64,000 nt of DNA from Polyangiaceae bacterium (GCA_965222375.1 CBDCTZ010000016.1:352001-416000); one strand, 5' to 3'; shown: positions 4,635 through 24,009, numbered from the stretch's first letter. A program made the numbers and translations. Notes: generated by a model not told the origin, from the letters alone.

Positions 4635-4730
4635 CCTGCGCAAGGCCGAAGGGAACCCCTGAAAGGGGCAGGGCGGAACGGACACCAGGATGGAAAGCCG
4701 GTCGTCGCCTGCAGCAACGTCCTGTTAGGT
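4635..4730 (-). repeat. Truncated, degenerate attC (R''/L'' half, long class)
   Basis: Retains CCGAAGGGAACCCCTGAAAGGGGCAGGGCGGAACGGAC and CAACGTCCTGTTAGG; R' half missing. Confidence 0.8.
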
Positions 4731-4792
4731 GGTTCCCAGTGGCACTGCACGCAGGTCCACGTGTCGCCCGGTGTCAGGCGCAATCCGGACGT

Positions 4793-4843
4793 GCGGTATT
4801 CACTCGAGACGTGCACGGCGCGGTATTCACTCGAGACGTGCAC
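4793..4843. repeat. Tandem duplication, 27-bp period (GCGGTATTCACTCGAGACGTGCAC x2)
   Basis: Seen directly. Confidence 0.85.
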
Positions 4844-4916
4844 CGCGGGGTCCGCGCGGAGTAGGCTTTCGCCATGTTTCACCCGGGAGCCTGATCGCTC
4901 AGCGCCTCGGTCGACG

Positions 4917-5201
4917 TTAGAGCAGTGACTCGAGTTCGCGTCGCACCTCAGACCAGGGGCGTGCGGTATCAGGGTTCGCCTTGTGGGCGTGGAGGCGTCG
5001 GCGAACCAGGGCACGCTGGGCATCAGTGACTTCGAGTTCACCGGAATCGATCCTGTCAGCCAGGACACTAGATGCCAGTGTGCAAGCGAGCCGCACCGCT
5101 TCGTCTTGTGAGTCTCCGTAGACGACTACTCCAGGCAGTTCGGAGATCTCAGCCAACCAGCGCCCGTCCGCCTCCTGCTCGAGTGCGACAGTGAGTTTCA
5201 T
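4917..5201 (-). CDS. HicB-like antitoxin fused to addiction-module (TIGR02574-like) C-terminus
   Basis: LEQEADGRWLAEISELPGVVVYGDSQDEA (HicB N-terminus) followed by TDAQRALVRRRLHAHKANPDTARPWSEVR. Confidence 0.7.
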   Translation of the reverse strand: MKLTVALEQEADGRWLAEISELPGVVVYGDSQDEAVRLACTLASSVLADRIDSGELEVTDAQRALVRRRLHAHKANPDTARPWSEVRRELESLL

Positions 5202-5434
5202 CGTTTCAGGCCGACTAGGCTTGCACGGGCTTGTTCAAGGGCCTGCTCGGTAGAGATCGTGTGAGCCGTGCCATTGCGAAGTCGCTCAATTCGTCGTGCG
5301 ACCTCGTGTGCCCAGGCGTCTTCTGAGTTGTTCTTCGCGTCTTCGAGAGTCTGCGCAAGGCGAAGCGCGAGACGGGCACGCTCGTCCTCAGGAAGCCCAT
5401 GCGCTTCGGGGAGAAAGGAGTCTGACGAACGCAT
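5198..5434 (-). CDS. Addiction-module antitoxin protein
   Basis: LPEDERARLALRL...AWAHEVARRIERL motif; ATGA overlap with downstream gene. Confidence 0.7.
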   Translation of the reverse strand: MRSSDSFLPEAHGLPEDERARLALRLAQTLEDAKNNSEDAWAHEVARRIERLRNGTAHTISTEQALEQARASLVGLKR

Positions 5435-5504
5435 GTCGAGGTTGTAACACCACGGCTATGCAAACGCACGAGTGCTCGGTTTTCCGACGGCGGCGTGATG
5501 TCGC

Positions 5505-5598
5505 TCTGGAAGAGGTCGACCGACAGGGCGGCGTGACCGATCCGTCCGGCAACATCTGGTGGATCTCGACGCGGGTGGTCCAAGAGCCGTACGACTGA
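5505..5598 (+). pseudogene. C-terminal fragment of a VOC/glyoxalase (PhnB-like) gene
   Basis: DRQGGVTDPSGNIWWIST motif with no recognisable N-terminal part; left boundary approximate. Confidence 0.5.
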
Positions 5599-5642
5599 GG
5601 TGAGTGCGAGGCGCTCGACCAGGTTGCTCGGAGAGCCTCGGA

Positions 5643-6333
5643 CTAGCTCGAGCACCGGTCATCTGGACGGGAGGGAACCAAATGGCATCGCCGTCCGGAC
5701 CGGTAATACCCCAGCTTCTCCGCGACTCGGAGAGACGCCCAGTTGTCCTCCGCACAACTCCAAACAGCTGTCTTTCCGCGCTCGAACACACGCCGGAGAA
5801 CCACTCGCGCTGCGGCCTCAGCAAAACCCCGATTCCGGTACTCCTCCTTGGTAGTGTCAGCGGGCATCCGAAAGGGCGTCTAAGCGGGCGGCATGGCGAA
5901 GGTGCCCAGATTTGCGCGTGAGTGATGCCCAGATTTGCGCCTTCGGATGAGCGCGTGAAATTGGGCCTGGTGGGAACGACGCAAGTTCGAGGTAAACGTC
6001 ACCGATTACCCTTGGCTCCGAACCAAGCGCGCAGCGCACGTGATCCGCAACGTCCGCGGCTGCCTCCTCCGGAACGTTGAGACAACCCCACCCCGGAGCC
6101 ACCTGGGCAAGGGACCAGATTGTGTCGGCAGTGCCGAATGCGAACGGCTCGTCCGGGTACGGTCCGGGCCGGATGAAGCAGCCCAAGAGCTCCCCGCTCC
6201 CCCCGCGCACCGTCCAGGCCTCACAGATTCCACGCTGTAACAGGTGGACCGCCGCAGCCGTCCACGGCGACTCACCCAGTTCGGCAGCCAATGCCGTAAA
6301 CGCTGCTCGCGGCAACTTTGTCGGCCTAGCCAT
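5643..6333 (-). pseudogene. Disrupted GNAT acetyltransferase cassette
   Basis: Split over two frames (5857-6333 and 5643-5867); the second carries EEYRNRGFAEAAA...NWASLRVAEKLGY; 15-bp local duplication TGCCCAGATTTGCGC at 5903 and 5926. Confidence 0.65.
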
Positions 6334-6364
6334 GGCGACGCTGTCTCAGAAACGTGCGAGACCC

Positions 6365-6419
6365 ACCTGACGCGCTGCCGCTCATCTGCGGATCCGTCAC
6401 CTGCAGCGGCTTGTTTGGC
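6365..6419 (-). repeat. Short divergent attC (55 bp)
   Basis: Minus strand GCCAAAC-AAGCCG-CTGCAGGTGAC...GATGAGC-GGCAGCGC-GTCAGGT between two cassette-like genes; R' is GTC rather than GTT. Confidence 0.6.
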
Positions 6420-6474
6420 CGACACTTCGCCACCAACTCAACTACTCCCGTCCCAACCCCTCGCCTCCGAAACA

Positions 6475-7083
6475 CTACAAGTTCCTTGTCATGCGCACGA
6501 ACACCGTCGGCAGCAACTTGGACGCCGGCCAGCGCGAGGACTCGACCATCCCGCGACGCGCGTACAGCTTGCGCGCACCCTTGTTCTTCGCCGCGACATC
6601 CAGACAGAGCCGGGCTGATCCGGTGGCCCTGGCGCGTTCTTCCGCGTCGGCCATCAGAAGCGAGCCAATCCCGGCCCCACGCAAATTCGGCTCCACAGCC
6701 ATTCCCTGGATATAGAAATCTCCCTCGGCAAAAGTGTTCAAGATGCGCCAGAGCGGCCCCAGAAGTGTCCGCACGCACCCCATGCGGAACGCGCTGCGGC
6801 CGGCGGCACGCCTCAGGGGCTCCTCGCTGAAGCTGCGGTGCTGTGCGCCAGTGAACGCGGAGTTCATGCCGACAACCACACCATCGCGCTCGGCAAACAG
6901 CACGTGCTCGAACGAAAGCGAATGTCCGGGCTCGGAGAAGGCACTGGCGATGATCCGTTCCGCGTTTCGGCCGAGCATGAAGCCGAAGAAACTCTCGGCC
7001 GCCTGATCCATGTAGCGAGCGAAGAGCAGCCCTTCATCATGGTCCGGTGTCGCGGGACGTATCAGCACGGAGGCACTTCGCAT
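6475..7083 (-). CDS. GNAT acetyltransferase (cassette)
   Basis: IQGMAVEPNLRGAGIGSLL...NKGARKLYARRG. Confidence 0.85.
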   Translation of the reverse strand: MRSASVLIRPATPDHDEGLLFARYMDQAAESFFGFMLGRNAERIIASAFSEPGHSLSFEHVLFAERDGVVVGMNSAFTGAQHRSFSEEPLRRAAGRSAFRMGCVRTLLGPLWRILNTFAEGDFYIQGMAVEPNLRGAGIGSLLMADAEERARATGSARLCLDVAAKNKGARKLYARRGMVESSRWPASKLLPTVFVRMTRNL

Positions 7084-7160
7084 CTCTGTCCGCTCCTACC
7101 CTGATACACAGGTGCTCGGAAGCCCGCACCCGGTCATCAGCTGATAGAGCTTGTTCGTCC

Positions 7161-7240
7161 GCCTAACAATTGAGGCGTTCAGCAGCGAACGCCGAACAAC
7201 ATACGCAGACTCTATCACGCTGCAGGCGCAGAATTGCGCC
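7161..7240 (-). repeat. Truncated attC (L'/R' half)
   Basis: GCCTAACAATTGAGGCGTTCAGCAGCGAACGCC on + strand; similarity ends at about 7240. Confidence 0.85.
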
Positions 7241-7278
7241 GCGGTGGCGGTGTGCAAGGAAAATCCGCCGCCGTTCGT

Positions 7279-8090: not shown

Positions 8091-8150
8091 TTGCGGAGGA
8101 GCAGGGATTCGACCCCTGGGTGCCCTTTCGGGCGCGCGGTTTTCGAAACC
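8091..8150 (-). pseudogene. 3' fragment of tRNA-Ser(CGA)
   Basis: Minus strand GGT-TTCGAAA-ACCGC, long variable arm GCGCCCGAAAGGGCAC, T arm CAGGG-GTCGAAT-CCCTG, acceptor 3' strand CTCCTCC-G-CAA; D arm and 5' acceptor strand absent. Confidence 0.75.
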
Positions 8151-8316
8151 CAAAATTCTACCACGCTGCAGGCGCAGGGTTGCGCCGACCGCAGCGAAGG
8201 CTGCTCGGCGCAAGAACCCTGCGCGAGACCGAAGGGAACCCCTGGAAGGGGCAGGGCGGGACGGCCGCTATCCACTCAGAAAGCCGGCGGTCGTCTGCTG
8301 CAACGTCCTGTTAGGC
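8148..8316 (-). repeat. Truncated attC (long class, R' end replaced by tRNA fragment)
   Basis: Internal hairpin, 26-bp insert and CTGCTGCAACGTCCTGTTAGGC end present. Confidence 0.85.
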
Positions 8317-8844
8317 CGCCTTCGTGTCGATCCAGTATCGTCGTTTTGGTGTTTCGAGGTCGGGAGCGACGACGACGTTTTCGAGAACGCCGCCGTTCTT
8401 TTCGATAGCTCGGATGGACCCGATATTGTCGTCATCACACGTCACCAGCACGCGTTCGATACCAAGGTGATCGCGGGCGATGTCCATGGACAACCGGAGA
8501 ATTGTGGTCGCGTAACCTTGCCGACGAAACTCCGGCACGACGACGAAGCCAATGTGGCCCCCTACGCGAAGCAGAATCTCATTCAGTGAATGTCGGATCG
8601 ACGTACGGCCGACGATTCTTGCTCCGGCGAAAGCGAAGAGGAACGTCGATGGAACGTGATTCTGCGATGGTAGTCCGACGCCTCGCGCCCGCTCCGCGAG
8701 AATTTGGAGGTACCTCCGGAAAGGCACGCCCGGTTCATGGTAGTGCAAGAACTCCGGGAAGGTGGGCGATGTCGCCTTGTGAGCTCTGATGAACTCGTCC
8801 TCCTCGTCTTCCGTGGGATGTCTGAGCGTCAGCTCGCGCCGCAT
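8311..8844 (-). CDS. GNAT acetyltransferase (cassette)
   Basis: GGHIGFVVVPEFRRQGYAT...VTCDDDNIGSIRAIEKNGG; stop TAA lies in attC R''. Confidence 0.9.
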   Translation of the reverse strand: MRRELTLRHPTEDEEDEFIRAHKATSPTFPEFLHYHEPGVPFRRYLQILAERARGVGLPSQNHVPSTFLFAFAGARIVGRTSIRHSLNEILLRVGGHIGFVVVPEFRRQGYATTILRLSMDIARDHLGIERVLVTCDDDNIGSIRAIEKNGGVLENVVVAPDLETPKRRYWIDTKAA

Positions 8845-8870
8845 TCTCACCTGAGCTTGGAGAGTTGTAG

Positions 8871-9078
8871 ACCTAGCAATTGAGGCGTTCAGGAACGCCG
8901 CGAACAGCCTCACCCAAGACTACCACGCTGCAGGCGCAGGGTTGCGCCGCACGTGTCGAAGGGTGCTCGGCGCAAGAACCCTGCGCGAGACCGAAGGGAA
9001 CCCCTGGAAGGGGCAGGGCGGAACGAACGCCATCCAGTCAGAAAGCCGGCGATCGTCTGCTGCAACGTCGTGTTAGAC
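8871..9078 (-). repeat. attC, long class (208 bp), degenerate R' (GCTAGGT)
   Basis: Homologous to the array attC consensus with mutated core and L' box. Confidence 0.85.
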
Positions 9079-9088
9079 AGCTCTGTTG

Positions 9089-9463
9089 TCAGGGTGCGAG
9101 CTTGAATTCGACGTTTTCTCGAGTGACGTGGCACTCGTCGCTATCGTCAACAACGACGGTCTTCTTGGCGGTCTGGTATCCAGGCGCGGATACAGTAACC
9201 TCGTACGTTCCAAGTCGCTCACCGACGCCGAAGCAAGTGCAGTCGGTAGCGGCGGAGCACTGGAGAGCCTCCTGGAACTGCCCGTCCTGCGCGACGACGG
9301 ATGCGTTGCAAATCCGCTCTCCGGTTGCCTCGTCGCGAACGGTGACGTTGATGGAGTAGTGGAGACTAGCGTCGCAGGACTTACTGCTGCTGCAGTTTGG
9401 AAGGACGGCTAGCAGGGTCGGGCCGAGTAGTAACCACAAGAATCGACTGGAGGAAGCACGCAT
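9089..9463 (-). CDS. Secreted protein/lipoprotein with carboxypeptidase-regulatory/PEGA-like domain (cassette)
   Basis: Signal peptide ending in Cys; GTYEVTVSAPGYQT motif; ATG 4 nt after R'. Confidence 0.75.
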   Translation of the reverse strand: MRASSSRFLWLLLGPTLLAVLPNCSSSKSCDASLHYSINVTVRDEATGERICNASVVAQDGQFQEALQCSAATDCTCFGVGERLGTYEVTVSAPGYQTAKKTVVVDDSDECHVTRENVEFKLAP

Positions 9464-9467
9464 GTCT

Positions 9468-9680
9468 GTCTAACGATTGAGGCGTTCAGCAGCGAACGCC
9501 AGCAACAGCATACACAAAAACCCACCACGCTGCAGGCGCAGGGTTGCGCCGAAGGCAGCGAAGGCTGCTCGGCGCAAGAACCCGGCGCGAGACCGAAGGG
9601 AACCCCTGGAAGGGGCAGGGCGGAACGGACGCCATCCAGTCAGCAAGCCTGCGGTCGTCTGCTGCAACGTCTTGTTAGGC
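9468..9680 (-). repeat. attC, long class (213 bp)
   Basis: GTCTAAC...GTTAGGC termini on + strand, conserved L boxes. Confidence 0.92.
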
Positions 9681-9706
9681 GGCATGCGCTGGGCTACGCT
9701 TAGTTC

Positions 9707-9931
9707 GTGGACCTACAGCTGACAGCGGTTTTCAAGAAGGTACCGCAAGGGTACATTGCGTTCGTGGAAGAACTTCCTGGTGCGAACACCCAGGGCGCCA
9801 CGCTTGACGAGGCGCGAGAAAACTTGCGGGAAGCCGTCGAATTGGTGCTTGTTGCCAACCGCGAGTTCGCGCGTGAGGACGCCGGTGACGACGAAGTAAT
9901 CCGCGAGCAACTCAGGATCGCTAGCGGGTGA
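9707..9931 (+). CDS. hicB: HicB family antitoxin (inverted TA cassette)
   Basis: GYIAFVEELPGANTQGATLDEARENLREA. Confidence 0.9.
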   Translation: MDLQLTAVFKKVPQGYIAFVEELPGANTQGATLDEARENLREAVELVLVANREFAREDAGDDEVIREQLRIASG

Positions 9932-10113
9932 AGCGTCGCGATCTGATCCGGCATCTTGAGAAGAACGGTTGCCGGCTCCTGCGCGAGGGTGGAAGTCACT
10001 CGGTGTACGTCAATCCAGCGGCGAAGAAGGCATCAACTGTGCCTCGCCACTCCGAGGTCAACGACCATCTCGCGCGCAAGATCTGCAAGGATCTCGATGT
10101 GCCTCGCCCTTAG
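9928..10113 (+). CDS. hicA: HicA family toxin
   Basis: MKRRDLIRHLEKNGCRLLREGGSHSVY...VPRH. Confidence 0.92.
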   Translation: MKRRDLIRHLEKNGCRLLREGGSHSVYVNPAAKKASTVPRHSEVNDHLARKICKDLDVPRP

Positions 10114-10158
10114 CGGAGTGCGCTCCAACGGCCAGCCTGCGCGATGAGTCTGTGGTCC

Positions 10159-10369
10159 GCCTAACAATTGAGGCGTTCAGCAGCGAACGCCAGAAACAAC
10201 ACCACCCAAGACTACCACGCTACAGGCGCAGGGTTGCGCCGAACGCAGCGAAGGCTGCTCGGCGCAAGACCCCTGCGCGAGACCGAAGGGAACCCCTGGA
10301 AGGGGCACGGCGGAGCGAACGCCAACCAGTCAGAAAGCCGGCGGTCGTCCGCTGCAACGTCCTGTAGGC
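10159..10369 (-). repeat. attC, long class, 1-nt deletion in R''
   Basis: Ends CCTGTAGGC instead of CCTGTTAGGC. Confidence 0.9.
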
Positions 10370-10621
10370 GGGGTTCACCGTGACGTAGAACGCCGCTGGC
10401 GGGGGCAGCTCGGTGGCGGCGCTGGCGAAAGCATGCGCGGCAGCAATGGACTTAGTGTGAATGGAAACAACGTCGCCCTCGAACACGCAGCGATCCACGT
10501 ATGCCTTTGCGTCGACAAGAGAGAGCCCAAGGTGAGTGCAGAGCAGTCGGATTACTTCGACGGTCCCGACGCTAGCGGGACCACAGAAACGCGGGTCGAT
10601 CCGGAGTTGTACAGTGGGCAT
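10220..10621 (-). CDS. Hypothetical cassette protein with L7/L12 C-terminal-like motif; reads through into attC
   Basis: VEVIRLLCTHLGLSLVDAKAYVD; expected TAA in R'' lost by the deletion. Confidence 0.6.
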   Translation of the reverse strand: MPTVQLRIDPRFCGPASVGTVEVIRLLCTHLGLSLVDAKAYVDRCVFEGDVVSIHTKSIAAAHAFASAATELPPPAAFYVTVNPAYRTLQRTTAGFLTGWRSLRRAPSRGSLRSRAGVLRRAAFAAFGATLRL

Positions 10622-11010
10622 CAGTGATCACTTCGCGTCGGCGGCTGTAGGCGTGCCCTGATGTATCCGCGAGCCTCGAGATTGAGTCCCCACTCGTCGG
10701 TCCCGCGCGAAATGCCCAAGAAGTAAAGGTTCCGATCAAGTTGTTCAAAGTGCACATCGCAGTCGGACGCGCGCAACGACACCAGCGTTGATTCGTCGTC
10801 GACCTCTACCGTCACCCATGCGGGTTGGTCATCCCAGGGATGGACCTGAATTCGGTTTTTCTGGGTCGTCCAGACGTCGATAACCGTGCTTGTTGAACCC
10901 CCGACCCGAAGGACGTAGCGCGCAGCACCAGTTCGGACGATCTCAATCAAGACGTCGTCGGCAGCAAAGTCATCGACGTCGCCGCTGGGCTGGACCTCGA
11001 GGCGCATCAC
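10621..11010 (-). CDS. Hypothetical acidic cassette protein
   Basis: GGAGGA SD right after R'; stop overlaps start of next gene. Confidence 0.7.
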   Translation of the reverse strand: MMRLEVQPSGDVDDFAADDVLIEIVRTGAARYVLRVGGSTSTVIDVWTTQKNRIQVHPWDDQPAWVTVEVDDESTLVSLRASDCDVHFEQLDRNLYFLGISRGTDEWGLNLEARGYIRARLQPPTRSDH

Positions 11011-11016
11011 TCCTCC

Positions 11017-11203
11017 GCCTAACGATTGAGGCGTTCAGCAGCGAACGCCAGCAACAGCATAACCAAAAAACCACCACGCTGCAGGCGCAGGGTTGCACCG
11101 AACGCATCGAAGGATGCTCGGTGCAAGAACCCTGCGCGCAGGGCGGAACGGACGGTACCCGGTCAGAAAGGCCGCGATCGTCTGCTGCAACGTCCTGTTA
11201 GAC
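11017..11203 (-). repeat. attC, short class (187 bp)
   Basis: GCCTAAC...GTTAGAC. Confidence 0.92.
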
Positions 11204-11497
11204 CGCCCGGTCACGCCAGTAGCCTGGTCGGCGCTTGCAGTGTGCGATGGCCACAACCAGCACCACTTCTCCACGCACGCAGTACACGACTTCGTAGGGG
11301 AACCGCTGCAGAAGGAACCGTCGCGTTCCCTCAAGATGTGCTGGCCAGGCGCCGGGCGCTGCCACGATTTCGCGAAAGGCGCGACGAACCTCGAGTTCAA
11401 AGGCGGTCGCGGCTACGGGGTTGCGCTCGGCGTACCACTCTGCCGCCGCGCGAGCCTCGTCTGCAGCCTCGGCGAGTACATCAAGTACGACCGCCAC
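11198..11497 (-). CDS. RelE/ParE family toxin
   Basis: AADEARAAAEWY...TRRFLLQRFPYEVVY...VVAIAHCKRRPGYW. Confidence 0.9.
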   Translation of the reverse strand: MAVVLDVLAEAADEARAAAEWYAERNPVAATAFELEVRRAFREIVAAPGAWPAHLEGTRRFLLQRFPYEVVYCVRGEVVLVVAIAHCKRRPGYWRDRAV

Positions 11498-11720: not shown

Positions 11721-11769
11721 GAACCCAGTGTACCAGAGCAAGCGGCCACGGCCAGATACGGCGTTGTCG

Positions 11770-11955: not shown

Positions 11956-11961
11956 CGCCCG

Positions 11962-12321: not shown

Positions 12322-12346
12322 AGAAACCTACGGGCAAAGCCAGTCG

Positions 12347-13257: not shown

Positions 13258-13259
13258 CG

Positions 13260-14883: not shown

Positions 14884-14888
14884 CGTCC

Positions 14889-16979: not shown

Positions 16980-16980
16980 G

Positions 16981-17394
16981 TCACTCAGTATCGGCCGCGG
17001 CGTCCACCGCCATCGGGAAGTACCGCGTCAGATGCTTGGAACCGACGCTCCGGATCTGCCCCGCACTCCTCAAACGCGTCATCGGTCGGTGCAGCTCGCG
17101 CACCGAAATGCCGACTTCCTCTGCCAGCGCCGCCATGCCCTTGCCGGGGCTCGCACAGATGGCCGCGTAGAGCCGCTGCCCAATCGCCGTAACTTCCTCG
17201 GGTGGACGGCGACGTCCCGTGCGACCTCTCGACCCTGTCGATGACTTCCGCGCCCTGGCAGCCCGCGTCTCCGCCACCGCGAAGCCTCGCTCGACCGCCT
17301 CCTGCGCGCTCCGCCGGCTTTCCGCGATGTGCTCCCGAACCAGCTGCTCGATCCGCTCCGACAATCCCTCGCTGTTACTCGTCGTCTTCGCCAT
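16981..17394 (-). CDS. Putative winged-helix DNA-binding protein carried inside the IS
   Basis: SPGKGMAALAEEVGISVRELHRPMTRLRSAGQIRSVG wHTH-like pattern; lies within the inverted repeats. Confidence 0.7.
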   Translation of the reverse strand: MAKTTSNSEGLSERIEQLVREHIAESRRSAQEAVERGFAVAETRAARARKSSTGSRGRTGRRRPPEEVTAIGQRLYAAICASPGKGMAALAEEVGISVRELHRPMTRLRSAGQIRSVGSKHLTRYFPMAVDAAADTE

Positions 17395-17509
17395 GCGCCA
17401 CGAATCTCACGTCCCGAGCCGGGCCCTCAACCCAACCCCTGAACGGTTACGCCGGAAGAGGCTACCAGGGCAGCGTGAAGCCTGAGCACCTCGCCGAGTG
17501 TCAGGAACC

Positions 17510-17707
17510 TCATCGAGCAAGCCGACGATACAACTCCGCGTTTTTCGACAGGACGCGGTTCGCGGCATTCTCGAAGTCGTCCGCCGGTTGACCTAGGAGG
17601 TCAGCGATTAGGGCGGAGGCCAACTGCTCTGCGGAGATGCCCAGTGACTTCGCCCTCTCGCGAAGGGCTTCGATCTGGGTTTCCGTCAGTTCGACCGGCA
17701 TTTGCAT
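17510..17707 (-). CDS. Antitoxin partner of Doc (ribbon-helix-helix-like)
   Basis: C-terminal FENAANRVLSKNAELYRRLA; ATGA overlap with doc. Confidence 0.8.
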   Translation of the reverse strand: MQMPVELTETQIEALRERAKSLGISAEQLASALIADLLGQPADDFENAANRVLSKNAELYRRLAR

Positions 17708-17791
17708 GCGAGAAGTGTAGCCGATTTTCTGACGACGGAAACCGGGGCCAACGAAGGCGCCACTCACCAACGCCGCAGCGCGAGATGCTCC

Positions 17792-18004
17792 GCCTAACAA
17801 TTGAGGCGTTCAGCAGCGAACGCCAGGAACAGCATACCCAAAAACCCACAACGCTGCAGGCGCAGGGTTGCGCCGAACGCAGCGAAGGCTGCTCGGCGCA
17901 AGAACCCTGCGCGAGACCGAAGGGAACCCCTGGAAGGGGCAGGGCGGAACGAACGCAGTCCAGTCAGAGCGCCTGCGGTCGTCTGTTGCAACGTCCTGTT
18001 AGGA
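17792..18004 (-). repeat. attC, long class (213 bp)
   Basis: GCCTAAC...GTTAGGA. Confidence 0.92.
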
Positions 18005-18397
18005 GGCTCCGTGGCGGATGGGGGCAAACTCGTTCGGACGCTCGTAAAAAACGCGTTCAAACCGTTCGGTGAGGAAGCTGTCGCTCGGGACCAGTTCGGC
18101 GTAGCGCTCGTTTGCGACGTGCTCAGTTTCGTCCGTCCACTGAGAGAGGACGGGATCCGTCGCCGCCCCGTTGAGGAAGGCGGCCACGTCCTGCAGACCG
18201 AAGTAGGAGAACCCGTCTGCAGCAGCAGCGAGTTCGACCGCTGTGAGGACATCGATGACATGGTGAACGCCGCCGTTCATCGCGATTCCGTGTGCTCGCA
18301 ACAGAGCCGCGAGGGCGGTGTCACCGGAGTGTGGTGTCAGACCGCCAGACTCCAAGGCTGCGCGGTTCCAAACCTGATCCGCGGTGGAAAGAGTCAT
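17999..18397 (-). CDS. Acidic helical cassette protein, DMP19/DUF4375-like
   Basis: AMNGGVHH...AAADGFSYFG pattern, acidic C-terminus; stop in R''. Confidence 0.6.
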   Translation of the reverse strand: MTLSTADQVWNRAALESGGLTPHSGDTALAALLRAHGIAMNGGVHHVIDVLTAVELAAAADGFSYFGLQDVAAFLNGAATDPVLSQWTDETEHVANERYAELVPSDSFLTERFERVFYERPNEFAPIRHGAS

Positions 18398-18402
18398 CGT
18401 CC

Positions 18403-18589
18403 GCCTAACAATTGAGGCGTTCAGCAGCGAACGCCAGAAACAACATACCCAAACTCTACCACGCAGTCAGGCGCAGGGTTGCGCCGAACGCAGCGAAGGC
18501 TGCTCGGTGCAAGAACCCTGCGCGCAGGGCGGAACGGACGCTGACGAGTCAGAAAGCCGGCGGTCGTCTGCTGCAACGTCCTGTTAGGC
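18403..18589 (-). repeat. attC, short class (cassette A variant)
   Basis: Repeat copy. Confidence 0.92.
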
Positions 18590-18593
18590 AACG

Positions 18594-18959
18594 CTACGAG
18601 GACTTGCGGGTCAACCGTGACGCCACCTCGACCAACCCGTTGGTGATGACTTCCGGAAGCGGCGCCGCCAACTTCGTTCGGAGGAGCGCAGCGATGTCCA
18701 TTGTGAACAGCACTTCTCCGCCAGCGAAGAGTGAGACGGTTTCGTCCTCCTGGTGCAACCCATCTGGCCACCACTTCCGCTGCCACTCGATCCTCAGGGG
18801 CTGGTCCTGGATCGAAGCGCAACGGAGGACGACACTGGCGGGGTTGTATGCCGTTTCTGATTCCTGAATTTGAACAACCTCGAGACCAAGTTCCTCGAGT
18901 CTTGCGCGGAGGTTGGAGACCGCCGCGGTGTCAGACAGGAAAAGGAAGGGCTGAGCCAC
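18594..18959 (-). CDS. Cassette A hypothetical protein (copy 2 of 4)
   Basis: Identical translation. Confidence 0.7.
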   Translation of the reverse strand: MAQPFLFLSDTAAVSNLRARLEELGLEVVQIQESETAYNPASVVLRCASIQDQPLRIEWQRKWWPDGLHQEDETVSLFAGGEVLFTMDIAALLRTKLAAPLPEVITNGLVEVASRLTRKSS

Positions 18960-18969
18960 CTGCGCGATT

Positions 18970-19156
18970 GCCTAACAATTGAGGCGTTCAGCAGCGAACG
19001 CCAGGAACAACATACCCAGACATTATCACGCAGTCGGGCGCAGGGTTGCGCCGACCGCAGCGAGGGCTGCTCGGCGCAAGAACCCTGCGCGCAGGGCGGA
19101 ACGGACGCCATCCAGTCGAAAAGCCGGCGGTCGTCTGCTGCAACGTCCTGTTAGGA
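18970..19156 (-). repeat. attC, short class (cassette C variant)
   Basis: Repeat copy. Confidence 0.92.
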
Positions 19157-19178
19157 GGCGTCGTTCTTTAGCAGTCGA

Positions 19179-19568
19179 CTATTCCGTACGGCCAAGAGGC
19201 ACCGCTTGGGACCAGCGAGCGCCCTCCTGACATTCGAGCATGGCGCCCTGGTTGTGTGCAACGAGACGGAGGGGCCGCGAGGTGACGCACCGAAGGAAGG
19301 CATTCAGATCGCTCGCCATTGCGGTCATGAGCTCGTGGCGGGGCGTGTCATCGTACCCGTCGTAATCGCACCAGTCGGTGACCTCCAGTCCGGAGGAGTG
19401 CTTCGCGTCGACGAACCACTCGAGAACGTTGATGGCAGCGTGGACTGTCACGGAAAGCTCGTCCCGTGTGAGGACAATCTCAACATACTCCGCGTGCCGC
19501 TGGACAACCACGCCCGGCGTTCCGGCGAAGGCCTCCACCGCAGCGACGTGGGGACGGAGAGCTTTCAC
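19179..19568 (-). CDS. Cassette C hypothetical protein (copy 2)
   Basis: Identical translation to 14494-14883. Confidence 0.7.
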   Translation of the reverse strand: MKALRPHVAAVEAFAGTPGVVVQRHAEYVEIVLTRDELSVTVHAAINVLEWFVDAKHSSGLEVTDWCDYDGYDDTPRHELMTAMASDLNAFLRCVTSRPLRLVAHNQGAMLECQEGARWSQAVPLGRTE

Positions 19569-19573
19569 CGTCC

Positions 19574-19760
19574 GCCTAACAATTGAGGCGTTCAGCAGCG
19601 AACGCCAGAAACAGCATACCCAAAAAACCTCAACGCTGCAGGCGCAGGGTTGCGCCGAACGCAGCGAATGCTGCTCGGTGCAAGAACCCTGCGCGCAGGG
19701 CGGAACGGACGCCATCCAGTCAGAAAGCCGGCGGTCGTCTGCTGCAACGTCCTGTTAGGC
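19574..19760 (-). repeat. attC, short class (187 bp)
   Basis: GCCTAAC...GTTAGGC. Confidence 0.92.
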
Positions 19761-19795
19761 AGCTGGCGGCCCGCGCGTCGAAGCACGTGCCGTCG

Positions 19796-20239
19796 TCAGC
19801 GTGGCTTTGTCGCAACTCCGCGCAAGATGTCGATGCGATTCGGGGGAGCGTTCGGAGACATGAAGTCGGGAATGGTTTCCGCCGTTCGTCGAGGCCTGCT
19901 CAGGAACTCCACAGGCCACTCCGTCACGCGGCGCTGCTTGACGTGGACGTACCGGCCGTCTTCGTGCTCATCAATGAATTCTTGTTGGACGATGAGCGCC
20001 AAGGGCTCTTGAGCGCCGCTGGTCTGCCTCGAAAACTCGAACGCTTCGTCACAAGACGCGAAAGCGTAGAAGTAGTCGCTCCCGTTGTCCTCGTCGTCAG
20101 CTCCTTCAGACGGACAGCACCAGACGCGATACTCGAGAACGCCGTCCCAGACATACCCCCCACCAGCGTGTGCTTCTGCAGGATAGGTGCCGACGAGCGC
20201 GGGATCCACGACGGGCGGATATGTGTCGTCTGCTCTCAT
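19796..20239 (-). CDS. Hypothetical acidic cassette protein
   Basis: AGGGYVWDGVLEYRVWC...RRVTEWPVEFLSRP; ATG 4 nt after R'. Confidence 0.8.
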   Translation of the reverse strand: MRADDTYPPVVDPALVGTYPAEAHAGGGYVWDGVLEYRVWCCPSEGADDEDNGSDYFYAFASCDEAFEFSRQTSGAQEPLALIVQQEFIDEHEDGRYVHVKQRRVTEWPVEFLSRPRRTAETIPDFMSPNAPPNRIDILRGVATKPR

Positions 20240-20243
20240 GCCT

Positions 20244-20430
20244 GCCTAACAATTGAGGCGTTCAGCAGCGAACGCCAGAAACAACATACCCAAACTCTAC
20301 CACGCAGTCAGGCGCAGGGTTGCGCCGAACGCAGCGAAGGCTGCTCGGTGCAAGAACCCTGCGCGCAGGGCGGAACGGACGCTGACGAGTCAGAAAGCCG
20401 GCGGTCGTCTGCTGCAACGTCCTGTTAGGC
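20244..20430 (-). repeat. attC, short class (cassette A variant)
   Basis: Repeat copy. Confidence 0.92.
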
Positions 20431-20434
20431 AACG

Positions 20435-20800
20435 CTACGAGGACTTGCGGGTCAACCGTGACGCCACCTCGACCAACCCGTTGGTGATGACTTCCGGAAG
20501 CGGCGCCGCCAACTTCGTTCGGAGGAGCGCAGCGATGTCCATTGTGAACAGCACTTCTCCGCCAGCGAAGAGTGAGACGGTTTCGTCCTCCTGGTGCAAC
20601 CCATCTGGCCACCACTTCCGCTGCCACTCGATCCTCAGGGGCTGGTCCTGGATCGAAGCGCAACGGAGGACGACACTGGCGGGGTTGTATGCCGTTTCTG
20701 ATTCCTGAATTTGAACAACCTCGAGACCAAGTTCCTCGAGTCTTGCGCGGAGGTTGGAGACCGCCGCGGTGTCAGACAGGAAAAGGAAGGGCTGAGCCAC
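20435..20800 (-). CDS. Cassette A hypothetical protein (copy 3 of 4)
   Basis: Identical translation. Confidence 0.7.
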   Translation of the reverse strand: MAQPFLFLSDTAAVSNLRARLEELGLEVVQIQESETAYNPASVVLRCASIQDQPLRIEWQRKWWPDGLHQEDETVSLFAGGEVLFTMDIAALLRTKLAAPLPEVITNGLVEVASRLTRKSS

Positions 20801-20810
20801 CTGCGCGATT

Positions 20811-20996
20811 GCCTAACAATTGAGGCGTTCAGCAGCGAACGCCAGAAACAACATCAACCAACCCTACCACGCTGCAGGCGCAGGGTTGCGCCGAACGCAG
20901 CGAAGGCTGCTCGGCGCAAGAACCCTGCGCGCAGGGCGGAACGGACCTCACCCAGCCAGAAAGCCGGCGGTCGTCTGCTGCAACGTCCTGTTAGGA
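20811..20996 (-). repeat. attC, short class (186 bp)
   Basis: GCCTAAC...GTTAGGA. Confidence 0.92.
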
Positions 20997-21454: not shown

Positions 21455-21640
21455 GCCTAACAATTGAGGCGTTCAGCAGCGAACGCCAGAAACAACACCA
21501 ACCAACAATATCACGCTACAGGCGCAGGGTTGCGCCGACCGCAGCGAAGGCTGCTCGGTGCAAGACCCCTGCGCGCAGGGCGGAACGGACGCCATCCAGT
21601 CAGAAGGCCGGCGTTCGACTGCTGCAACGTCCTGTTAGGC
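21455..21640 (-). repeat. attC, short class (cassette B variant)
   Basis: Repeat copy. Confidence 0.92.
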
Positions 21641-21642
21641 CG

Positions 21643-22083
21643 CTACGCTACTCCGACGCCTTCCGCGCCTGCACTTCCGGGTCCGGAAGGAGGCGGTATG
21701 TCGGCAACCAGCGCCTCGATGCGCGGCAAGCGAGGAGTGACAGCAGATCGGACCGTTTCAATGGATTGAGGTGCCGAAAAACGAAGGAGCAACACGTAGA
21801 TCCCGCCAAAGGATCTGAGATAGGCATCGCCGGAGCGGCGTTTCGCGAAGCGATCAAGGCGGCCGCCGCGACGGAGCGGGGGATCGAGACTGGCGAGTTC
21901 GTCCAAAACGATCTGCGCAGCGGGAGAGCGGCCGTCGTCCTTCACGTGTTCGCTGGAACACCAGAGCGTACCGCGACTGTCGAGCACGTAGGCGTAGATG
22001 GCGCGGGCATCGGCAGCCAAATTGGTCAGCACGCGCCGCAGCTCGGACGAGGCCGGCGTTTCAGGACCCATGCGCATTCCCAC
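21643..22083 (-). CDS. Cassette B hypothetical protein (copy 2)
   Basis: Identical translation to 13260-13700. Confidence 0.75.
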   Translation of the reverse strand: MGMRMGPETPASSELRRVLTNLAADARAIYAYVLDSRGTLWCSSEHVKDDGRSPAAQIVLDELASLDPPLRRGGRLDRFAKRRSGDAYLRSFGGIYVLLLRFSAPQSIETVRSAVTPRLPRIEALVADIPPPSGPGSAGAEGVGVA

Positions 22084-22100
22084 CCACTGTCTCGACGTCG

Positions 22101-22287
22101 GCCTAACAATTGAGGCGTTCAGCAGCGAACGCCAGAAACAACATACCCAAACTCTACCACGCAGTCAGGCGCAGGGTTGCGCCGAACGCAGCGAAGGCTG
22201 CTCGGTGCAAGAACCCTGCGCGCAGGGCGGAACGGACGCTGACGAGTCAGAAAGCCGGCGGTCGTCTGCTGCAACGTCCTGTTAGGC
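22101..22287 (-). repeat. attC, short class (cassette A variant; first cassette)
   Basis: Repeat copy. Confidence 0.92.
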
Positions 22288-22291
22288 AACG

Positions 22292-22657
22292 CTACGAGGA
22301 CTTGCGGGTCAACCGTGACGCCACCTCGACCAACCCGTTGGTGATGACTTCCGGAAGCGGCGCCGCCAACTTCGTTCGGAGGAGCGCAGCGATGTCCATT
22401 GTGAACAGCACTTCTCCGCCAGCGAAGAGTGAGACGGTTTCGTCCTCCTGGTGCAACCCATCTGGCCACCACTTCCGCTGCCACTCGATCCTCAGGGGCT
22501 GGTCCTGGATCGAAGCGCAACGGAGGACGACACTGGCGGGGTTGTATGCCGTTTCTGATTCCTGAATTTGAACAACCTCGAGACCAAGTTCCTCGAGTCT
22601 TGCGCGGAGGTTGGAGACCGCCGCGGTGTCAGACAGGAAAAGGAAGGGCTGAGCCAC
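22292..22657 (-). CDS. Cassette A hypothetical protein (copy 4 of 4, attI-proximal)
   Basis: Identical translation. Confidence 0.7.
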   Translation of the reverse strand: MAQPFLFLSDTAAVSNLRARLEELGLEVVQIQESETAYNPASVVLRCASIQDQPLRIEWQRKWWPDGLHQEDETVSLFAGGEVLFTMDIAALLRTKLAAPLPEVITNGLVEVASRLTRKSS

Positions 22658-22667
22658 CTGCGCGATT

Positions 22668-22720
22668 GCCTAACAGTAATTAGACCGCGATGGCGGTCTA
22701 AGGTGGCTGTCAGTCTAACA
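22668..22720 (-). other. attI: attI recombination site (crossover G/TTAGGC at 22674-22668; outer extent uncertain)
   Basis: Identity with the other cassette A copies stops just past the GCCTAAC core, where no attC follows; lies 5' of the divergent intI. Confidence 0.8.
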
Positions 22721-23034
22721 GAGCGGTGGGGCCCCGATAAATCGGGAAAGGGGGTGCGTGGTGCACGTTAGGTGGGTCCACCTAACGTGCGAAGACGAGG
22801 TCCATCTAACAGAGGGGACTGGGCGGACCGTTTGGCCTCCGAGCCGGCGTTCAGCCGTGCGGGCGAGTTGGATGGCCGGCGCGGCGTTGGTTGGGGGTGG
22901 GCAGTGCTCGCAAGGGAGTGGCGTTCGCCATGGCGTCGATCTGGTGTCGCCACTGCGCGGAGCGGAGTGGCGACCGGCTTTCTGAGGAGAAGGGGGCGCC
23001 CGGGGGGCGGCATGGATGTTGATGAGGCTGGGGC

Positions 23035-24009
23035 ATGGGTTTGGAGCGTCGGACTCAGTTGTTGGAGCAAATGCGTCAGGCGCTGCAGGTGAGGCACTAC
23101 AGTCCGCGGACTGAAGAGGCGTATGTGGCGTGGGTCGAGCGGTTCGTGCACCATCATGATTTGCGGCATCCGGCGGAAATGGGGGCGGAGGATGTTCGGG
23201 TGTTCTTGGAGCACCTGGCGTCTGCGGACCGGGTGGCTGCTGCGACGCAGAATCAGGCGCTGGCGGCGCTCTTGTTCTTGTACGCGAATGTGCTGGGCAT
23301 GCCGTTCGAGGAGGTTGGGAGCTTTGTGCGTGCGAAGCGGCCGAAGCGCTTGCCCGTCGTGCTTGGCGCCGGGGAGGTGGCCGCCTTGCTGGAGCAGCTG
23401 GATGGGGTGCCGCTCTTGATGGCGCAGATGCTCTACGGCTCGGGGTTGCGGTTGCTCGAGTGCGCTCGCTTGCGCGCGAAGGATCTGTGCTTCGAGCGGG
23501 GTGAAGTCTTGGTTCGGAGCGGCAAGGGAGGCAAGGACCGGGTGGCGCCCTTCCCGCGCACGTTGGAGAGGCAGATGCGGATGCATCTCGTGAAGGTGAA
23601 GCGCCAGCACGACATGGATCTGTCTCGCGGGGCGGGGTGGGTGTTCGTTCCACCTTCGCTGGCGCGCAAGTACCCGAATGTGGGTCGCGATTGGCCCTGG
23701 CAATGGGTGTTCCCCGCGACGCGGCAGTACTTTCACACTGCGACGGGGCAGACGCGTCGGCATCACTATCACCAATCCGCCTTGCAGCGCGCCGTGCGCG
23801 TGGCGGGTCGCGCAGCGGGGTTGAACAAGCGCGCGACCTGCCACGCGCTTCGCCATTCCTTCGCGACTCACCTGCTCGAACAGGGCTACGACATCCGCAC
23901 CATTCAGGAGTTGCTCGGCCATCGCTCAGTGGCGACCACGATGGTCTACACCCATGTGCTCAACCGCGGTGGCTTGGGAGTTCGCAGCCCGCTCGACGGG
24001 CTCTGCTGA
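23035..24009 (+). CDS. intI: Integron integrase
   Basis: Tyrosine-recombinase residues [35 protein letters not shown] plus the integron-specific insert [26 protein letters not shown]...RRHH. Confidence 0.98.

What the first reader, a model, noticed from the sequence alone, without database searches (positions are those of the whole stretch)
4635..24009. Complete, apparently active chromosomal integron in a myxobacterium-like genome with a homogeneous attC family
Seen: intact intI, divergent attI, and about 20 small-gene cassettes separated by one closely related attC family over about 18 kb. Known: homogeneous attC families mark sedentary chromosomal integrons such as the Vibrio VCR and Xanthomonas XCR arrays. 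Inference: this is a lineage-specific super-integron-like platform in Myxococcota; several cassettes look host-type (lipoproteins), suggesting local cassette formation.
Basis: partly seen in the sequence, partly recalled or inferred. Interest (0 to 1): 0.8.

Follow-up and report, generated by a model that had tools for sequence, protein, structure and literature searches.

The report
Myxobacterial chromosomal integron, very long attC
This is a complete gene-capture platform (an integron) in the chromosome of a myxobacterium, with about twenty small gene cassettes, unusually long recombination sites and signs of very recent cassette copying; it is a good new example of a known kind of element, not a new kind.

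Summary
intI (23035-24009, +) scores 423 bits on the integron-integrase model (cut-off 265) and keeps all catalytic residues. To its left lie an attI region (core 22668-22674) and, on the minus strand, 18 cassettes with complete attC sites. Three attC remnants extend the array down to 4636. The attC sites form one family (83-95% identical) and are 186-213 nt long, beyond the 57-141 bp range usually quoted. They have a covarying central hairpin and two length classes that differ by a 26-nt hairpin.

Only 13 cassettes are distinct. One is present four times and two are present twice, all 100% identical. The pair next to attI is an exact 1221-nt copy of an internal pair and ends in the attI core, which points to recent integrase action.

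The host is Myxococcota (71 MYXO-CTERM hits, none in 14 controls). The locus is chromosomal, beside the H+-pyrophosphatase gene as in one congener (IntI 72% identical). IntI1 is only 47% identical. [quoted passage not shown]

Local cassette formation is not shown. Verdict: a new member of a known kind (sedentary chromosomal integron), of moderate interest. Earlier notes of this scan on the same stretch made the same two points.

The parts
23035..24009 (+). intI, integron integrase, 324 aa
   Evidence: TIGR02249 423.2 bits (cut-off 265), matched over 1-315 of 315 positions. Aligns over residues 7-321 to VchIntIA, PDB 2a3v, E 5e-85. R139, K164, H270, R273, H296 and Y305 and the IntI-specific patch are present.
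22668..22810 (-). attI region. It holds the crossover core GCCTAAC (22668-22674; GTTAGGC on the minus strand), a 9-bp inverted repeat TTAGACCGC/GCGGTCTAA (22680-22701), GTCTAAC (22713-22719), a 26-nt palindrome with GTTAGGT/ACCTAAC (22764-22789) and CATCTAAC (22803-22810).
   Evidence: Read from the sequence. The exact duplicate of an internal cassette pair ends at 22675, inside this core. Binding of IntI to these motifs is inferred, not tested.
22107..22673 (-). Cassette 1 (type A, copy 1 of 4): attC 22101-22287 (187 nt), ORF 22292-22657 (121 aa, no family).
21461..22106 (-). Cassette 2 (type D, copy 1 of 2): attC 21455-21640 (186 nt), ORF 21643-22083 (146 aa).
   Evidence: paralogue at 41% identity on C15
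20817..21460 (-). Cassette 3 (E): attC 20811-20996, ORF 21025-21438 (137 aa, cREC_REC receiver-like domain).
   Evidence: PF20274 E 7.8e-07
20250..20816 (-). Cassette 4 (type A, copy 2): attC 20244-20430, ORF 20435-20800.
19580..20249 (-). Cassette 5 (F): attC 19574-19760, ORF 19796-20239 (147 aa, no family).
18976..19579 (-). Cassette 6 (type B, copy 1 of 2): attC 18970-19156, ORF 19179-19568 (129 aa).
18409..18975 (-). Cassette 7 (type A, copy 3): attC 18403-18589, ORF 18594-18959.
17798..18408 (-). Cassette 8 (G): attC 17792-18004 (213-nt class), ORF 17999-18397 (132 aa, weak DMP19-like match below cut-off).
14895..17797 (-). Cassette 9: attC 14889-15075, a Fic/Doc toxin ORF (15070-15456) and a putative antitoxin ORF (17510-17800), split by an IS66-family element.
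   Evidence: PF02661 E 5.5e-15
15411..17450 (+). IS66-family insertion sequence (2040 bp). Terminal inverted repeats GTAACCGTTCAGGGG, 8-bp target duplication GCCGGAAG (15403-15410 and 17451-17458), transposase 15525-16979.
   Evidence: NF033517 279.7 bits. Three other copies at 99.9-100% identity in the genome. Ends.
14291..14894 (-). Cassette 10 (type B, copy 2): attC 14285-14471, ORF 14494-14883.
13724..14290 (-). Cassette 11 (type A, copy 4): attC 13718-13904, ORF 13909-14274.
13078..13723 (-). Cassette 12 (type D, copy 2): attC 13072-13257, ORF 13260-13700.
12353..13077 (-). Cassette 13 (H): attC 12347-12559 (213 nt); ORF 12613-13077 lies on the + strand, i.e. reversed.
   Evidence: paralogue at 46% identity at C16:505 kb
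11776..12352 (-). Cassette 14 (I): attC 11770-11955, ORF 11962-12321 (119 aa, hydrophobic).
11023..11775 (-). Cassette 15: attC 11017-11203; ParE toxin 11198-11497 and antitoxin 11481-11741.
   Evidence: PF05016 E 3.8e-08 and PF09720 E 1.3e-12
10165..11022 (-). Cassette 16 (J): attC 10159-10370 (212 nt; right core degenerate, GTAGGCG), ORF 10621-11010.
9474..10164 (-). Cassette 17: attC 9468-9680 (213 nt); HicB 9707-9931 and HicA 9928-10113 on the + strand (reversed).
   Evidence: PF07927 E 1.6e-13 and PF21748 E 1.7e-06
8877..9473 (-). Cassette 18 (K): attC 8871-9078 (208 nt; left core ACCTAGC), ORF 9089-9463 (124 aa, lipoprotein-like, CarboxypepD_reg domain).
8150..8876 (-). Decayed cassette: attC remnant 8150-8315 (profile positions 46-185; crossover-side arm missing) and a GNAT acetyltransferase ORF within 8311-8913.
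7161..7242 (-). attC remnant (profile positions 1-84), followed by unrelated sequence up to 8149.
   Evidence: (E 1.4e-19)
4730..7160 (-). Fossil distal part with no recognisable attC: GNAT 6475-7083, ORF 5857-6333, and two ORFs matching an antitoxin family (5198-5434 and 4917-5201).
4636..4729 (-). Outermost attC remnant (profile positions 115-185, with the 26-nt insert), ending GTTAGGT.
   Evidence: E 4e-10; families D7, D9

Best explanation
This is a complete, sedentary chromosomal integron of a Myxococcota genome, and it has probably been active recently.

Architecture. IntI (23035-24009) is transcribed rightwards. attI lies just upstream of it. The cassettes run leftwards on the minus strand. 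Each cassette is a small promoterless ORF (or a toxin-antitoxin pair) followed by a 186-213-nt attC site.

How an attC folds. The plus strand is the recombinogenic bottom strand. Folded as single-stranded DNA it pairs its GCCTAAC and GTTAGGC ends, leaves a 5-nt unpaired spacer, carries three single-base bulges on its 3' arm, and encloses a branched centre with a conserved ~60-nt hairpin.

Mechanism. As in other integrons, IntI would excise cassettes by attC x attC recombination and reinsert them at attI by attI x attC recombination. The last such events copied internal cassettes: D-A to attI, A-B internally, and A once more. The distal third of the array has decayed, and one cassette carries an IS66-family element.

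Shown here: the gene, the sites, the predicted fold with its covariation, the duplication endpoints, the chromosomal context and the distribution among relatives. Inferred: catalysis by this IntI, expression from a promoter near attI, and the orientation relative to replication.
For: IntI:
- TIGR02249 scores 423 bits against a cut-off of 265, and it is the only hit over the cut-off in the 10.56-Mb genome.
- It aligns full-length to the solved VchIntIA structure 2a3v.
- The catalytic residues R, K, H, R, H and Y are intact.

attC sites:
- There are 18 full and 3 partial sites of one family.
- For a typical 187-nt site the plus-strand DNA fold is -50 kcal/mol (z -5.0) against -44.9 for the minus strand.
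- The plus strand is the more stable in 10 of 13 distinct sites.
- On 18 sequences from two species the recombinogenic structure pairs 93.3% of cells, against 32-42% when partners are slid by 1-3 columns. Nine pairs changed on both sides, against 3.2 +/- 1.3 in shuffles; 0 of 500 shuffles reached this.
- My estimate of the probability of the recombinogenic fold is at least 0.74 for 7 of 13 distinct sites, including all the duplicated cassettes.

Activity:
- 13072-14292 equals 21455-22675 exactly (1221 nt). The left end is at an attC core and the right end is in the attI core, where no homology to attC continues.
- 13718-14895 equals 18403-19580 exactly (1178 nt), with both ends at cores.
- A full attC of this family with a hybrid left core (GCCGAAC) sits alone on another contig, next to a Fic-TIR gene.
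- A public short-read contig bridges cassette A, attI and intI (22258-24112).

Sedentary status:
- The locus lies on a 3.48-Mb contig.
- In congener G003 an intI whose product is 72% identical lies about 700 nt from the homologue of the H+-PPase block (window 32152-36962).
- No transposition or conjugation genes were found among the flanking ORFs scanned from 26 kb left of the window to window 35.6 kb; only IS66/IS110 transposase genes turned up.
- IntI1 is 47% identical and sits with Burkholderiales in a quick tree, while G000 and G003 are sisters with SH-aLRT 99.
- The array has more than 10 attC sites, the threshold for sedentary elements used in PMC9024848 (passage seen).
Against: - No recombination was observed directly, and the laid public contigs show no circular-cassette junction.
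- No sigma-70-like promoter was found between intI and the first cassette, so expression of the cassettes is unproven.
- The attC sites lie outside the quoted 57-141 bp range (PMC5371416).
- The unpaired spacer is one-sided, and the second bulged base is C rather than the G that I recall for canonical sites.
- Six of 13 distinct attC sites have a low predicted recombinogenic fold (0.09 or less), and two have degenerate cores.
- The sister array in G003 is largely eroded.
- Four of 5 congeners have no IntI, so long-term vertical inheritance is shown for two species only.
- In three other family members with IntI, intI and the H+-PPase gene lie on different contigs.
Confidence: 0.88

Rival explanations
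1. The array is a frozen or decaying integron. On this view the identical duplicates arose by RecA-dependent unequal crossing-over or replication slippage between the 83-95% identical attC repeats, not by the integrase.
For: The long, similar attC repeats are good substrates for homologous exchange. Integrase-independent events between similar attC sites are reported for small cassettes (PMC5371416, passage seen). The distal array and the G003 array are eroded. No circle junctions were seen in the public contigs.
Against: The D-A copy ends inside the attI core, and attI shares only about 8 nt with attC, so homologous exchange cannot make this junction. All duplication ends coincide with the cores. 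IntI is intact. A lone cassette sits at a non-att site with a hybrid core.
Confidence: 0.06
2. The integron is part of a recently acquired mobile island or a mobile integron, not a resident chromosomal element.
For: It lies in a variable segment of about 58 kb: in G004 the homologues of C16:~325.9 kb and of window 32152 are about 1.4 kb apart. IntI is found in only 1 of 5 congeners and in 6 of 40 relatives, 2 of them as fragments. IS66 and IS110 genes lie nearby.
Against: The anchor gene is the same in G003, whose IntI is diverged to 72% identity. No tni, relaxase, conjugation or additional integrase genes were found in the ORFs scanned. GC3 of the cassettes is about 0.74, against 0.75-0.87 for neighbouring genes. 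IntI1 is 47% identical. The attC family is confined to this genus among 105 genomes searched, plus 1 metagenome contig.
Confidence: 0.04
3. The multi-copy cassettes are an assembly artefact of a repeat-rich region.
For: The copies are 100% identical. Public short-read contigs break at every attC and give ambiguous low-depth joints with sides of only 21-34 nt.
Against: Each copy has different neighbours, in a 3.48-Mb contig of a 16-contig assembly. One public contig bridges cassette A to attI and intI.
Confidence: 0.02

Closest known systems
Vibrio cholerae superintegron (VCR attC family)
   Same: intI with a divergent attI. Many small cassettes of unknown function separated by one homogeneous attC family with a branched variable centre. 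Toxin-antitoxin cassettes, some in reverse orientation. IntI aligns full-length to VchIntIA.
   Different: There are 18-21 attC sites here, against up to 203 cassettes. The sites are 186-213 nt, against predominantly 120-129 bp. The bottom strand here is inferred to lie on the lagging-strand template, whereas in Vibrio it is always on the leading-strand template (PMC5371416 passages).
Xanthomonas chromosomal integrons
   Same: [quoted passage not shown] There is erosion and a possibly impaired integrase in a sister lineage: G003 has Gln at the HxxR His and eroded attC sites.
   Different: Here IntI is intact and the proximal array shows zero-mutation rearrangements. The attC sites are far longer, and the host phylum differs.
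Class 1 mobile integrons (IntI1)
   Same: The same recombination logic and the same R-box core (GTTAGGC). The attI simple site resembles attI1 in layout; that comparison is recalled, not tested.
   Different: IntI1 is 47% identical and falls in another clade. There is no Tn402 or plasmid context. The attC sites here are homogeneous and long, rather than short and heterogeneous. No antibiotic-resistance family turned up in the family scans.

Membership tests
Integron (IntI + attI + attC cassettes) | Tyrosine recombinase of the IntI subfamily with the IntI-specific additional domain | tested here: met
   TIGR02249 423 bits against a cut-off of 265 over the full model. The patch ...[21 protein letters not shown]... 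aligns with VchIntIA.
Integron (IntI + attI + attC cassettes) | Intact catalytic residues (R, K, HxxR, H, Y) | tested here: met
   R139, K164, H270, R273, H296 and Y305, read. The positions are assigned from my knowledge of the tyrosine recombinase motifs.
Integron (IntI + attC cassettes) | attC sites: imperfect inverted repeats with RYYYAAC/GTTRRRY cores, an unpaired spacer, and extrahelical bases that mark the bottom strand | tested here: met
   Sixteen of 18 sites have RYYYAAC on the left and 17 of 18 have a GTTRRR-type core on the right. Covariation: 93.3% of cells paired, 9 pairs changed on both sides, 0 of 500 shuffles as high. The length of 186-213 nt is outside the usual range. The IntegronFinder model itself could not be run.
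Integron (IntI + attI + attC cassettes) | attI next to intI, divergent from it, at the junction with the first cassette | tested here: met
   The core at 22668-22674 lies 360 nt upstream of intI. An exact cassette-pair duplicate ends in it.
Integron (IntI + attI + attC cassettes) | Pc promoter reading into the cassettes | tested here: inconclusive
   The consensus scan found 0 sigma-70-like sites in 22250-23150. Myxobacterial promoters may not fit that consensus.
Integron (IntI + attI + attC cassettes) | IntI-catalysed attI x attC and attC x attC recombination | not testable with these tools
   Only indirect evidence: duplication endpoints at the cores, and a lone cassette with a hybrid core.
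Sedentary chromosomal integron | Chromosomal, more than 10 attC sites, homogeneous attC family | tested here: met
   A 3.48-Mb contig. There are 18 full and 3 partial attC sites, with median identity 89%. The threshold comes from PMC9024848.
Sedentary chromosomal integron | Same locus in related species (vertical inheritance) | tested here: inconclusive
   The anchor is the same in G003, and absent at that junction in G002, G004 and G005. In G019, G014 and G010 intI lies on another contig than the H+-PPase gene.
Sedentary chromosomal integron | attC bottom strands on the leading-strand template (25 of 30 SCIs in PMC5371416) | tested here: not met
   The plus strand is the bottom strand. Plus-strand GC skew is positive from C16:250 kb to 3.47 Mb, which puts it on the lagging-strand template. 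This is a frequent trait, not a strict criterion. It rests on skew alone: dnaA is on another contig and gene-strand bias is uninformative.
Mobile integron classes 1-5 | IntI close to a class reference and carriage on a transposon or plasmid | tested here: not met
   IntI1 is 47% identical, and the best plasmid-collection hit is 59% (Gemmatirosa megaplasmid). There are no transposition modules in the flanks. Classes 2-5 were not compared individually.

The most novel reading that the evidence does not exclude
The conserved, covarying branched centre that makes these attC sites 186-213 nt long may be a functional module of its own. It consists of a ~60-nt hairpin plus an optional 26-nt hairpin, and both are present in two species. 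[quoted passage not shown]
Probability: 0.12. Interest if true: 0.6.

Novelty: new member of a known kind. Interest (0 to 1): 0.4.

Why it matters
- It gives a well-resolved, apparently live sedentary integron in Myxococcota. In that phylum integrons are catalogued but, in the papers my three searches returned, not described in detail.
- Its attC sites exceed the 57-141 bp range quoted in the field. The 213-nt class would exceed a 200-nt size cap in detection software; that this is IntegronFinder's default is recalled, not checked. Such arrays may therefore be under-counted.
- It is a natural test case for how long and how branched an attC can be and still recombine.
- It is also a test case for the link between lagging-strand orientation, small array size and rapid cassette shuffling proposed from Vibrio and Xanthomonas.

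Tried and rejected
- Rfam at gathering thresholds on the whole window gave 0 matches. ARAGORN found 0 tRNA genes, so the tRNA-like stretch near 8090-8130 is not a tRNA gene.
- Promoter and terminator scans gave 0 promoter-like sites at attI. In the array there was 1 promoter-like site against 1.5 expected and 13 terminator-like sites against 13.2 expected, so there is no signal.
- My own generic attC scan (core motifs plus fold) recovered 15 of the 16 known sites lying wholly within its control stretch. It found none of another type in 1-9100 and nothing convincing in 22600-33000.
- The strict version of that scan found almost nothing in G003 or in other Myxococcota intI loci. G003's sites have degenerate cores, so this says little about attC lengths in relatives.
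- PADLOC gave no hit for 12 cassette or array ORFs. The protein atlas gave no usable hit for cassette A.
- Public runs: no RNA holder is listed.
- Four DNA-type runs (2 samples, 1 study, possibly the source of the assembly) hold the stretch as short contigs that break at attC sites. Eight low-depth joints with sides of 21-34 nt link attC ends to other attC starts. They are ambiguous at repeats and were not used.
- Gene-strand bias is about 0.5 everywhere, so it does not help with the replication direction.
- The idea that the long centre throttles folding of the recombinogenic form is not supported: the estimated fold probability is 0.74 or more for 7 of 13 sites.
- RNAalifold with RNA parameters prefers local arm hairpins over the long-range stem. 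I therefore counted pairs on the DNA-parameter structure instead.
- The careful maximum-likelihood tree did not finish. The quick tree (62 rows; one row with an internal stop was dropped, and 25 of the 80 loci were not used because they were short, partial or redundant) is what I report.
- A LexA-box check was considered but dropped, because the myxobacterial consensus is only recalled.

Full report
**What is there.** The window is C16:352001-416000 of a 10.56-Mb, 16-contig genome that is 98% complete. The 324-aa ORF at 23035-24009 (+) is an integron integrase.
- It scores 423.2 bits on TIGR02249 (cut-off 265) over the whole model.
- It carries the Pfam integrase and SAM-like domains.
- It aligns over residues 7-321 to the solved Vibrio cholerae integron integrase 2a3v, E 5e-85.
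- It keeps R139, K164, H270-x-x-R273, H296 and Y305 and the IntI-specific segment.
- It is the only hit over the family cut-off in the genome.

**The repeats.** Left of intI, the repeat finder shows one family whose two arms recur 19 and 20 times.
- Extracted core to core, there are 18 complete sites of 186-213 nt that begin with a GCCTAAC-type core and end with a GTTAGGC-type core.
- A profile built from them finds those 18, three partial sites (8150-8315, 7161-7242, 4636-4729) and nothing else of weight in the window.
- The 13 distinct sites are 83-95% identical, median 89%.
- They fall into a 186-187-nt class (12 sites) and a 208-213-nt class (6 sites, plus the remnants at 8150 and 4636). 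The classes differ by a 26-nt hairpin insert.

**Which strand recombines.** Three lines of evidence agree that the plus strand is the bottom, recombinogenic strand, as expected for an array that diverges from a rightward intI.
- Folded as single-stranded DNA, the plus strand pairs its first 8 and last 8 bases. It leaves ATTGA unpaired on the 5' arm and continues in a long stem with three single-base bulges, all on the 3' arm.
- The plus strand is the more stable strand in 10 of 13 distinct sites.
- Sixteen of 18 cassettes carry their ORFs on the minus strand.
That extrahelical bases mark the 3' arm of the bottom strand is recalled from the attC literature; the general description is in PMC5371416 (passages).

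**Structure support.** I aligned the 13 distinct window sites, the lone genomic site and four G003 sites (alignment A2). I then counted pairs on the structure predicted with DNA parameters.
- 93.3% of cells pair, against 32-42% when partners are slid by 1-3 columns.
- Nine pairs changed on both sides, against 3.2 +/- 1.3 in shuffles; 0 of 500 shuffles reached this.
- Five of the 10 pairs at the tip of the central hairpin show compensatory changes.
- The structure was derived from one of these sequences, which favours it in the slid control.
- RNAalifold with RNA parameters instead prefers local hairpins in each arm, so alternative folds exist.
- My estimate of the probability of the recombinogenic fold is 0.74-0.77 for 7 of 13 distinct bottom strands, including those of cassettes A, B and D. 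It is 0.09 or less for the other 6, five of which are among the most distal complete sites. Fixed pair indices may under-score the variant sites.

**Cassettes.** Starting from attI the order is A, D, E, A, F, B, A, G, [Fic/Doc TA + IS66], B, A, D, H (reversed), I, ParE TA, J, HicAB (reversed), K.
- Family matches are few:
  - a cREC_REC-like receiver domain (E);
  - ParE with its antitoxin;
  - HicA with HicB;
  - Fic/Doc;
  - a CarboxypepD_reg lipoprotein-like protein (K);
  - a weak DMP19-like match (G).
- Cassette A (121 aa) matched nothing in Pfam, NCBIfam, PADLOC or the atlas; the other scanned cassette ORFs without a family (B, D, F, H, I, J) also gave no PADLOC hit.
- An IS66-family element (15411-17450) with an 8-bp target duplication splits the Fic/Doc cassette. 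It has three other near-identical copies in the genome.
- Further left the array decays. There is a GNAT cassette with a truncated attC, a half attC at 7161-7242, about 2.4 kb with another GNAT gene and two ORFs matching an antitoxin family but no recognisable attC, and a last attC remnant at 4636-4729.

**Evidence for recent activity.**
- The four A copies, the two B copies and the two D copies are each 100% identical.
- Block 13072-14292 (D-A) equals 21455-22675 exactly, over 1221 nt. It starts at the first base of an attC core and stops one base past the GCCTAAC core of attI (22668-22674). Beyond that core attI has no similarity to attC.
- Homologous exchange between attC repeats cannot create such an attI junction. 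Insertion of an excised two-cassette circle at attI can.
- Block 13718-14895 (A-B) equals 18403-19580, over 1178 nt, again core to core.
- A complete attC of the family also lies alone at C15:716810-716993. Its left core is changed to GCCGAAC, and it sits downstream of a 402-aa Fic plus TIR-like gene that matches defence-system models. This is what integrase-mediated insertion at a non-att site would leave. Such insertions are the subject of preprint 10.1101/2022.09.11.507474 (abstract seen in the listing).
- A degenerate copy lies at C16:279257-279435.

**Host and context.**
- The genome has 71 MYXO-CTERM matches over the cut-off, against 0 in 14 control genomes. That this domain is specific to Myxococcota is my knowledge of the family.
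- Full-length IntI relatives occur in 4 of 40 related genomes: G003 (same genus, 72% identity), G010 (63%), G019 (58%) and G014 (55%). Fragments occur in 2 more.
- G001, G002, G004 and G005 of the same genus have none; G001 is only 88% complete.
- In G003 intI lies about 700 nt from the homologue of window 32152-36962, which starts with the H+-pyrophosphatase gene. In this genome 8 kb separate them.
- In G004 the H+-PPase block is about 1.4 kb from homologues of C16:~325.9 kb. G002 and G005 also lack intI there.
- The integron therefore sits in a variable segment of about 58 kb. That segment otherwise holds ordinary accessory genes and IS66/IS110 transposase genes, with no conjugation or Tn402-type genes.
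- In G019, G014 and G010, intI and the H+-PPase gene are on different contigs.
- The attC family itself was found by BLAST in G003 (25 matches), and only as weak partial matches in 2 of 100 other family genomes.
- Its conserved 22-mer occurs in a single 1452-nt metagenome contig.
- G003's sites include both length classes but are mostly truncated or have degenerate cores. Its IntI has Gln at the HxxR histidine.

**Relation to mobile classes.**
- IntI1 is 47% identical. The best hit in the plasmid collection is 59%, on a Gemmatirosa megaplasmid.
- 579 relatives in genome contigs were found across many phyla; the 80 kept are 48-61% identical.
- A quick maximum-likelihood tree of 62 rows puts G000 with G003 (SH-aLRT 99) and IntI1 with a Burkholderiales sequence (89). 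The backbone is mostly unresolved, with 28 of 59 inner branches drawn open. The careful search did not finish.

**Orientation relative to replication.**
- Plus-strand GC skew on C16 is negative up to about 250 kb and positive from there to 3.47 Mb. At the integron (356.6-376 kb) the plus strand therefore has leading-strand composition, which makes it the lagging-strand template.
[quoted passage not shown] The five exceptions are all Xanthomonas, with at most 22 cassettes. Lagging-strand placement favours attC folding and excision.
- The small, reshuffled array here fits that picture.
- Caveats: dnaA lies on C15, with no skew switch there, and gene-strand bias is flat. This rests on skew alone.

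**Comparison with what is known.**
- The architecture and the inferred mechanism are those of a sedentary chromosomal integron.
- It resembles the Vibrio superintegron in its homogeneous, branched attC family and its TA cassettes.
- It resembles the Xanthomonas integrons in size, orientation, fixed locus and erosion in a sister lineage.
- What differs is the attC length. The range 57-141 bp is quoted in PMC5371416, with Vibrio sites at 120-129 bp.
- What also differs is the host phylum. Integrons in Myxococcota/Deltaproteobacteria are mentioned in surveys (PMC9668308; PMC8352920). A study of Myxococcaceae isolates found none (PMC13616975, passages).
- My three literature searches returned no paper describing an attC family of this length or an integron of this genus. 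Supplementary tables of those surveys were not opened and may list it.

**Verdict.**
That claim rests only on host-like GC3 and on distant paralogues for 3 of 23 ORFs tested.
- This is a new member of a known kind, with three points worth a specialist's attention: the very long structured attC sites, the zero-mutation cassette copies that end in attI, and the lagging-strand orientation.
- Earlier notes of this scan on the same stretch state the first two points; I reached and checked them independently.

Noticed in passing
L140 3011-3194 (G000 C15:716810-716993) and L140 3385-4593: A lone full-length attC of the same family lies outside the integron. Its left core is changed to GCCGAAC. It sits downstream of a 402-aa Fic plus TIR-like ORF (PADLOC TIR effector E 7.7e-49, PycTIR 1.2e-35, SoFic 2.5e-22). 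It looks like a defence-type cassette inserted at a secondary site.
   Followed up: partly
L141 (G000 C16:279257-279435): A degenerate attC-like remnant (54 bits on the profile) lies 77 kb left of the distal end of the array.
   Followed up: no
window 23983-24114: Three tandem 44-nt units (93% and 73% identical to the first) lie here. The first overlaps the last codons and the stop of intI, and each holds a small GC hairpin. Function unknown.
   Followed up: no
L010 (G003 C171) and L041/L042: The congener's IntI has Gln in place of the HxxR histidine. Its attC sites of the same family are mostly truncated or have degenerate cores, so its integron appears to be decaying at the same locus.
   Followed up: partly
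G000 C16 about 200-250 kb; C15:939378-940739: GC skew switches from negative to positive (origin-type) near C16:250 kb. However, dnaA lies on contig C15, whose skew is negative throughout with no switch at dnaA.
   Followed up: partly
window 15411-17450; G000 C16:336101-338142, C5:207780-209821, C5:608223-610267: A 2040-bp IS66-family element is present in four copies at 99.9-100% identity. It therefore looks recently active. One copy lies inside the integron and one lies 20 kb to its left.
   Followed up: partly
window 24010-32150 and G000 C16:325.9-352 kb: A segment of about 58 kb around the integron is absent at the corresponding junction of congener G004. It holds Uma2, LRR, GFA, a sigma-54 activator, an MBL-fold protein, a polysaccharide lyase and a Ser/Thr kinase gene, among others.
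   Followed up: partly
L144 (metagenome contig, 1452 nt): This is the only metagenome contig with the attC 22-mer. It holds the end of one attC, a spacer of about 236 nt and the first 112 positions of another attC, and then diverges.
   Followed up: partly
window 46122-46226 and 47781-47885: Two MYXO-CTERM sorting signals at the ends of minus-strand ORFs; they are unrelated to the integron.
   Followed up: no
window 8090-8130: A tRNA-T-arm-like stretch (CAGGGATTCGACCCCTG) abuts the truncated attC at 8150. ARAGORN calls no tRNA here, and its origin is unexplained.
   Followed up: partly
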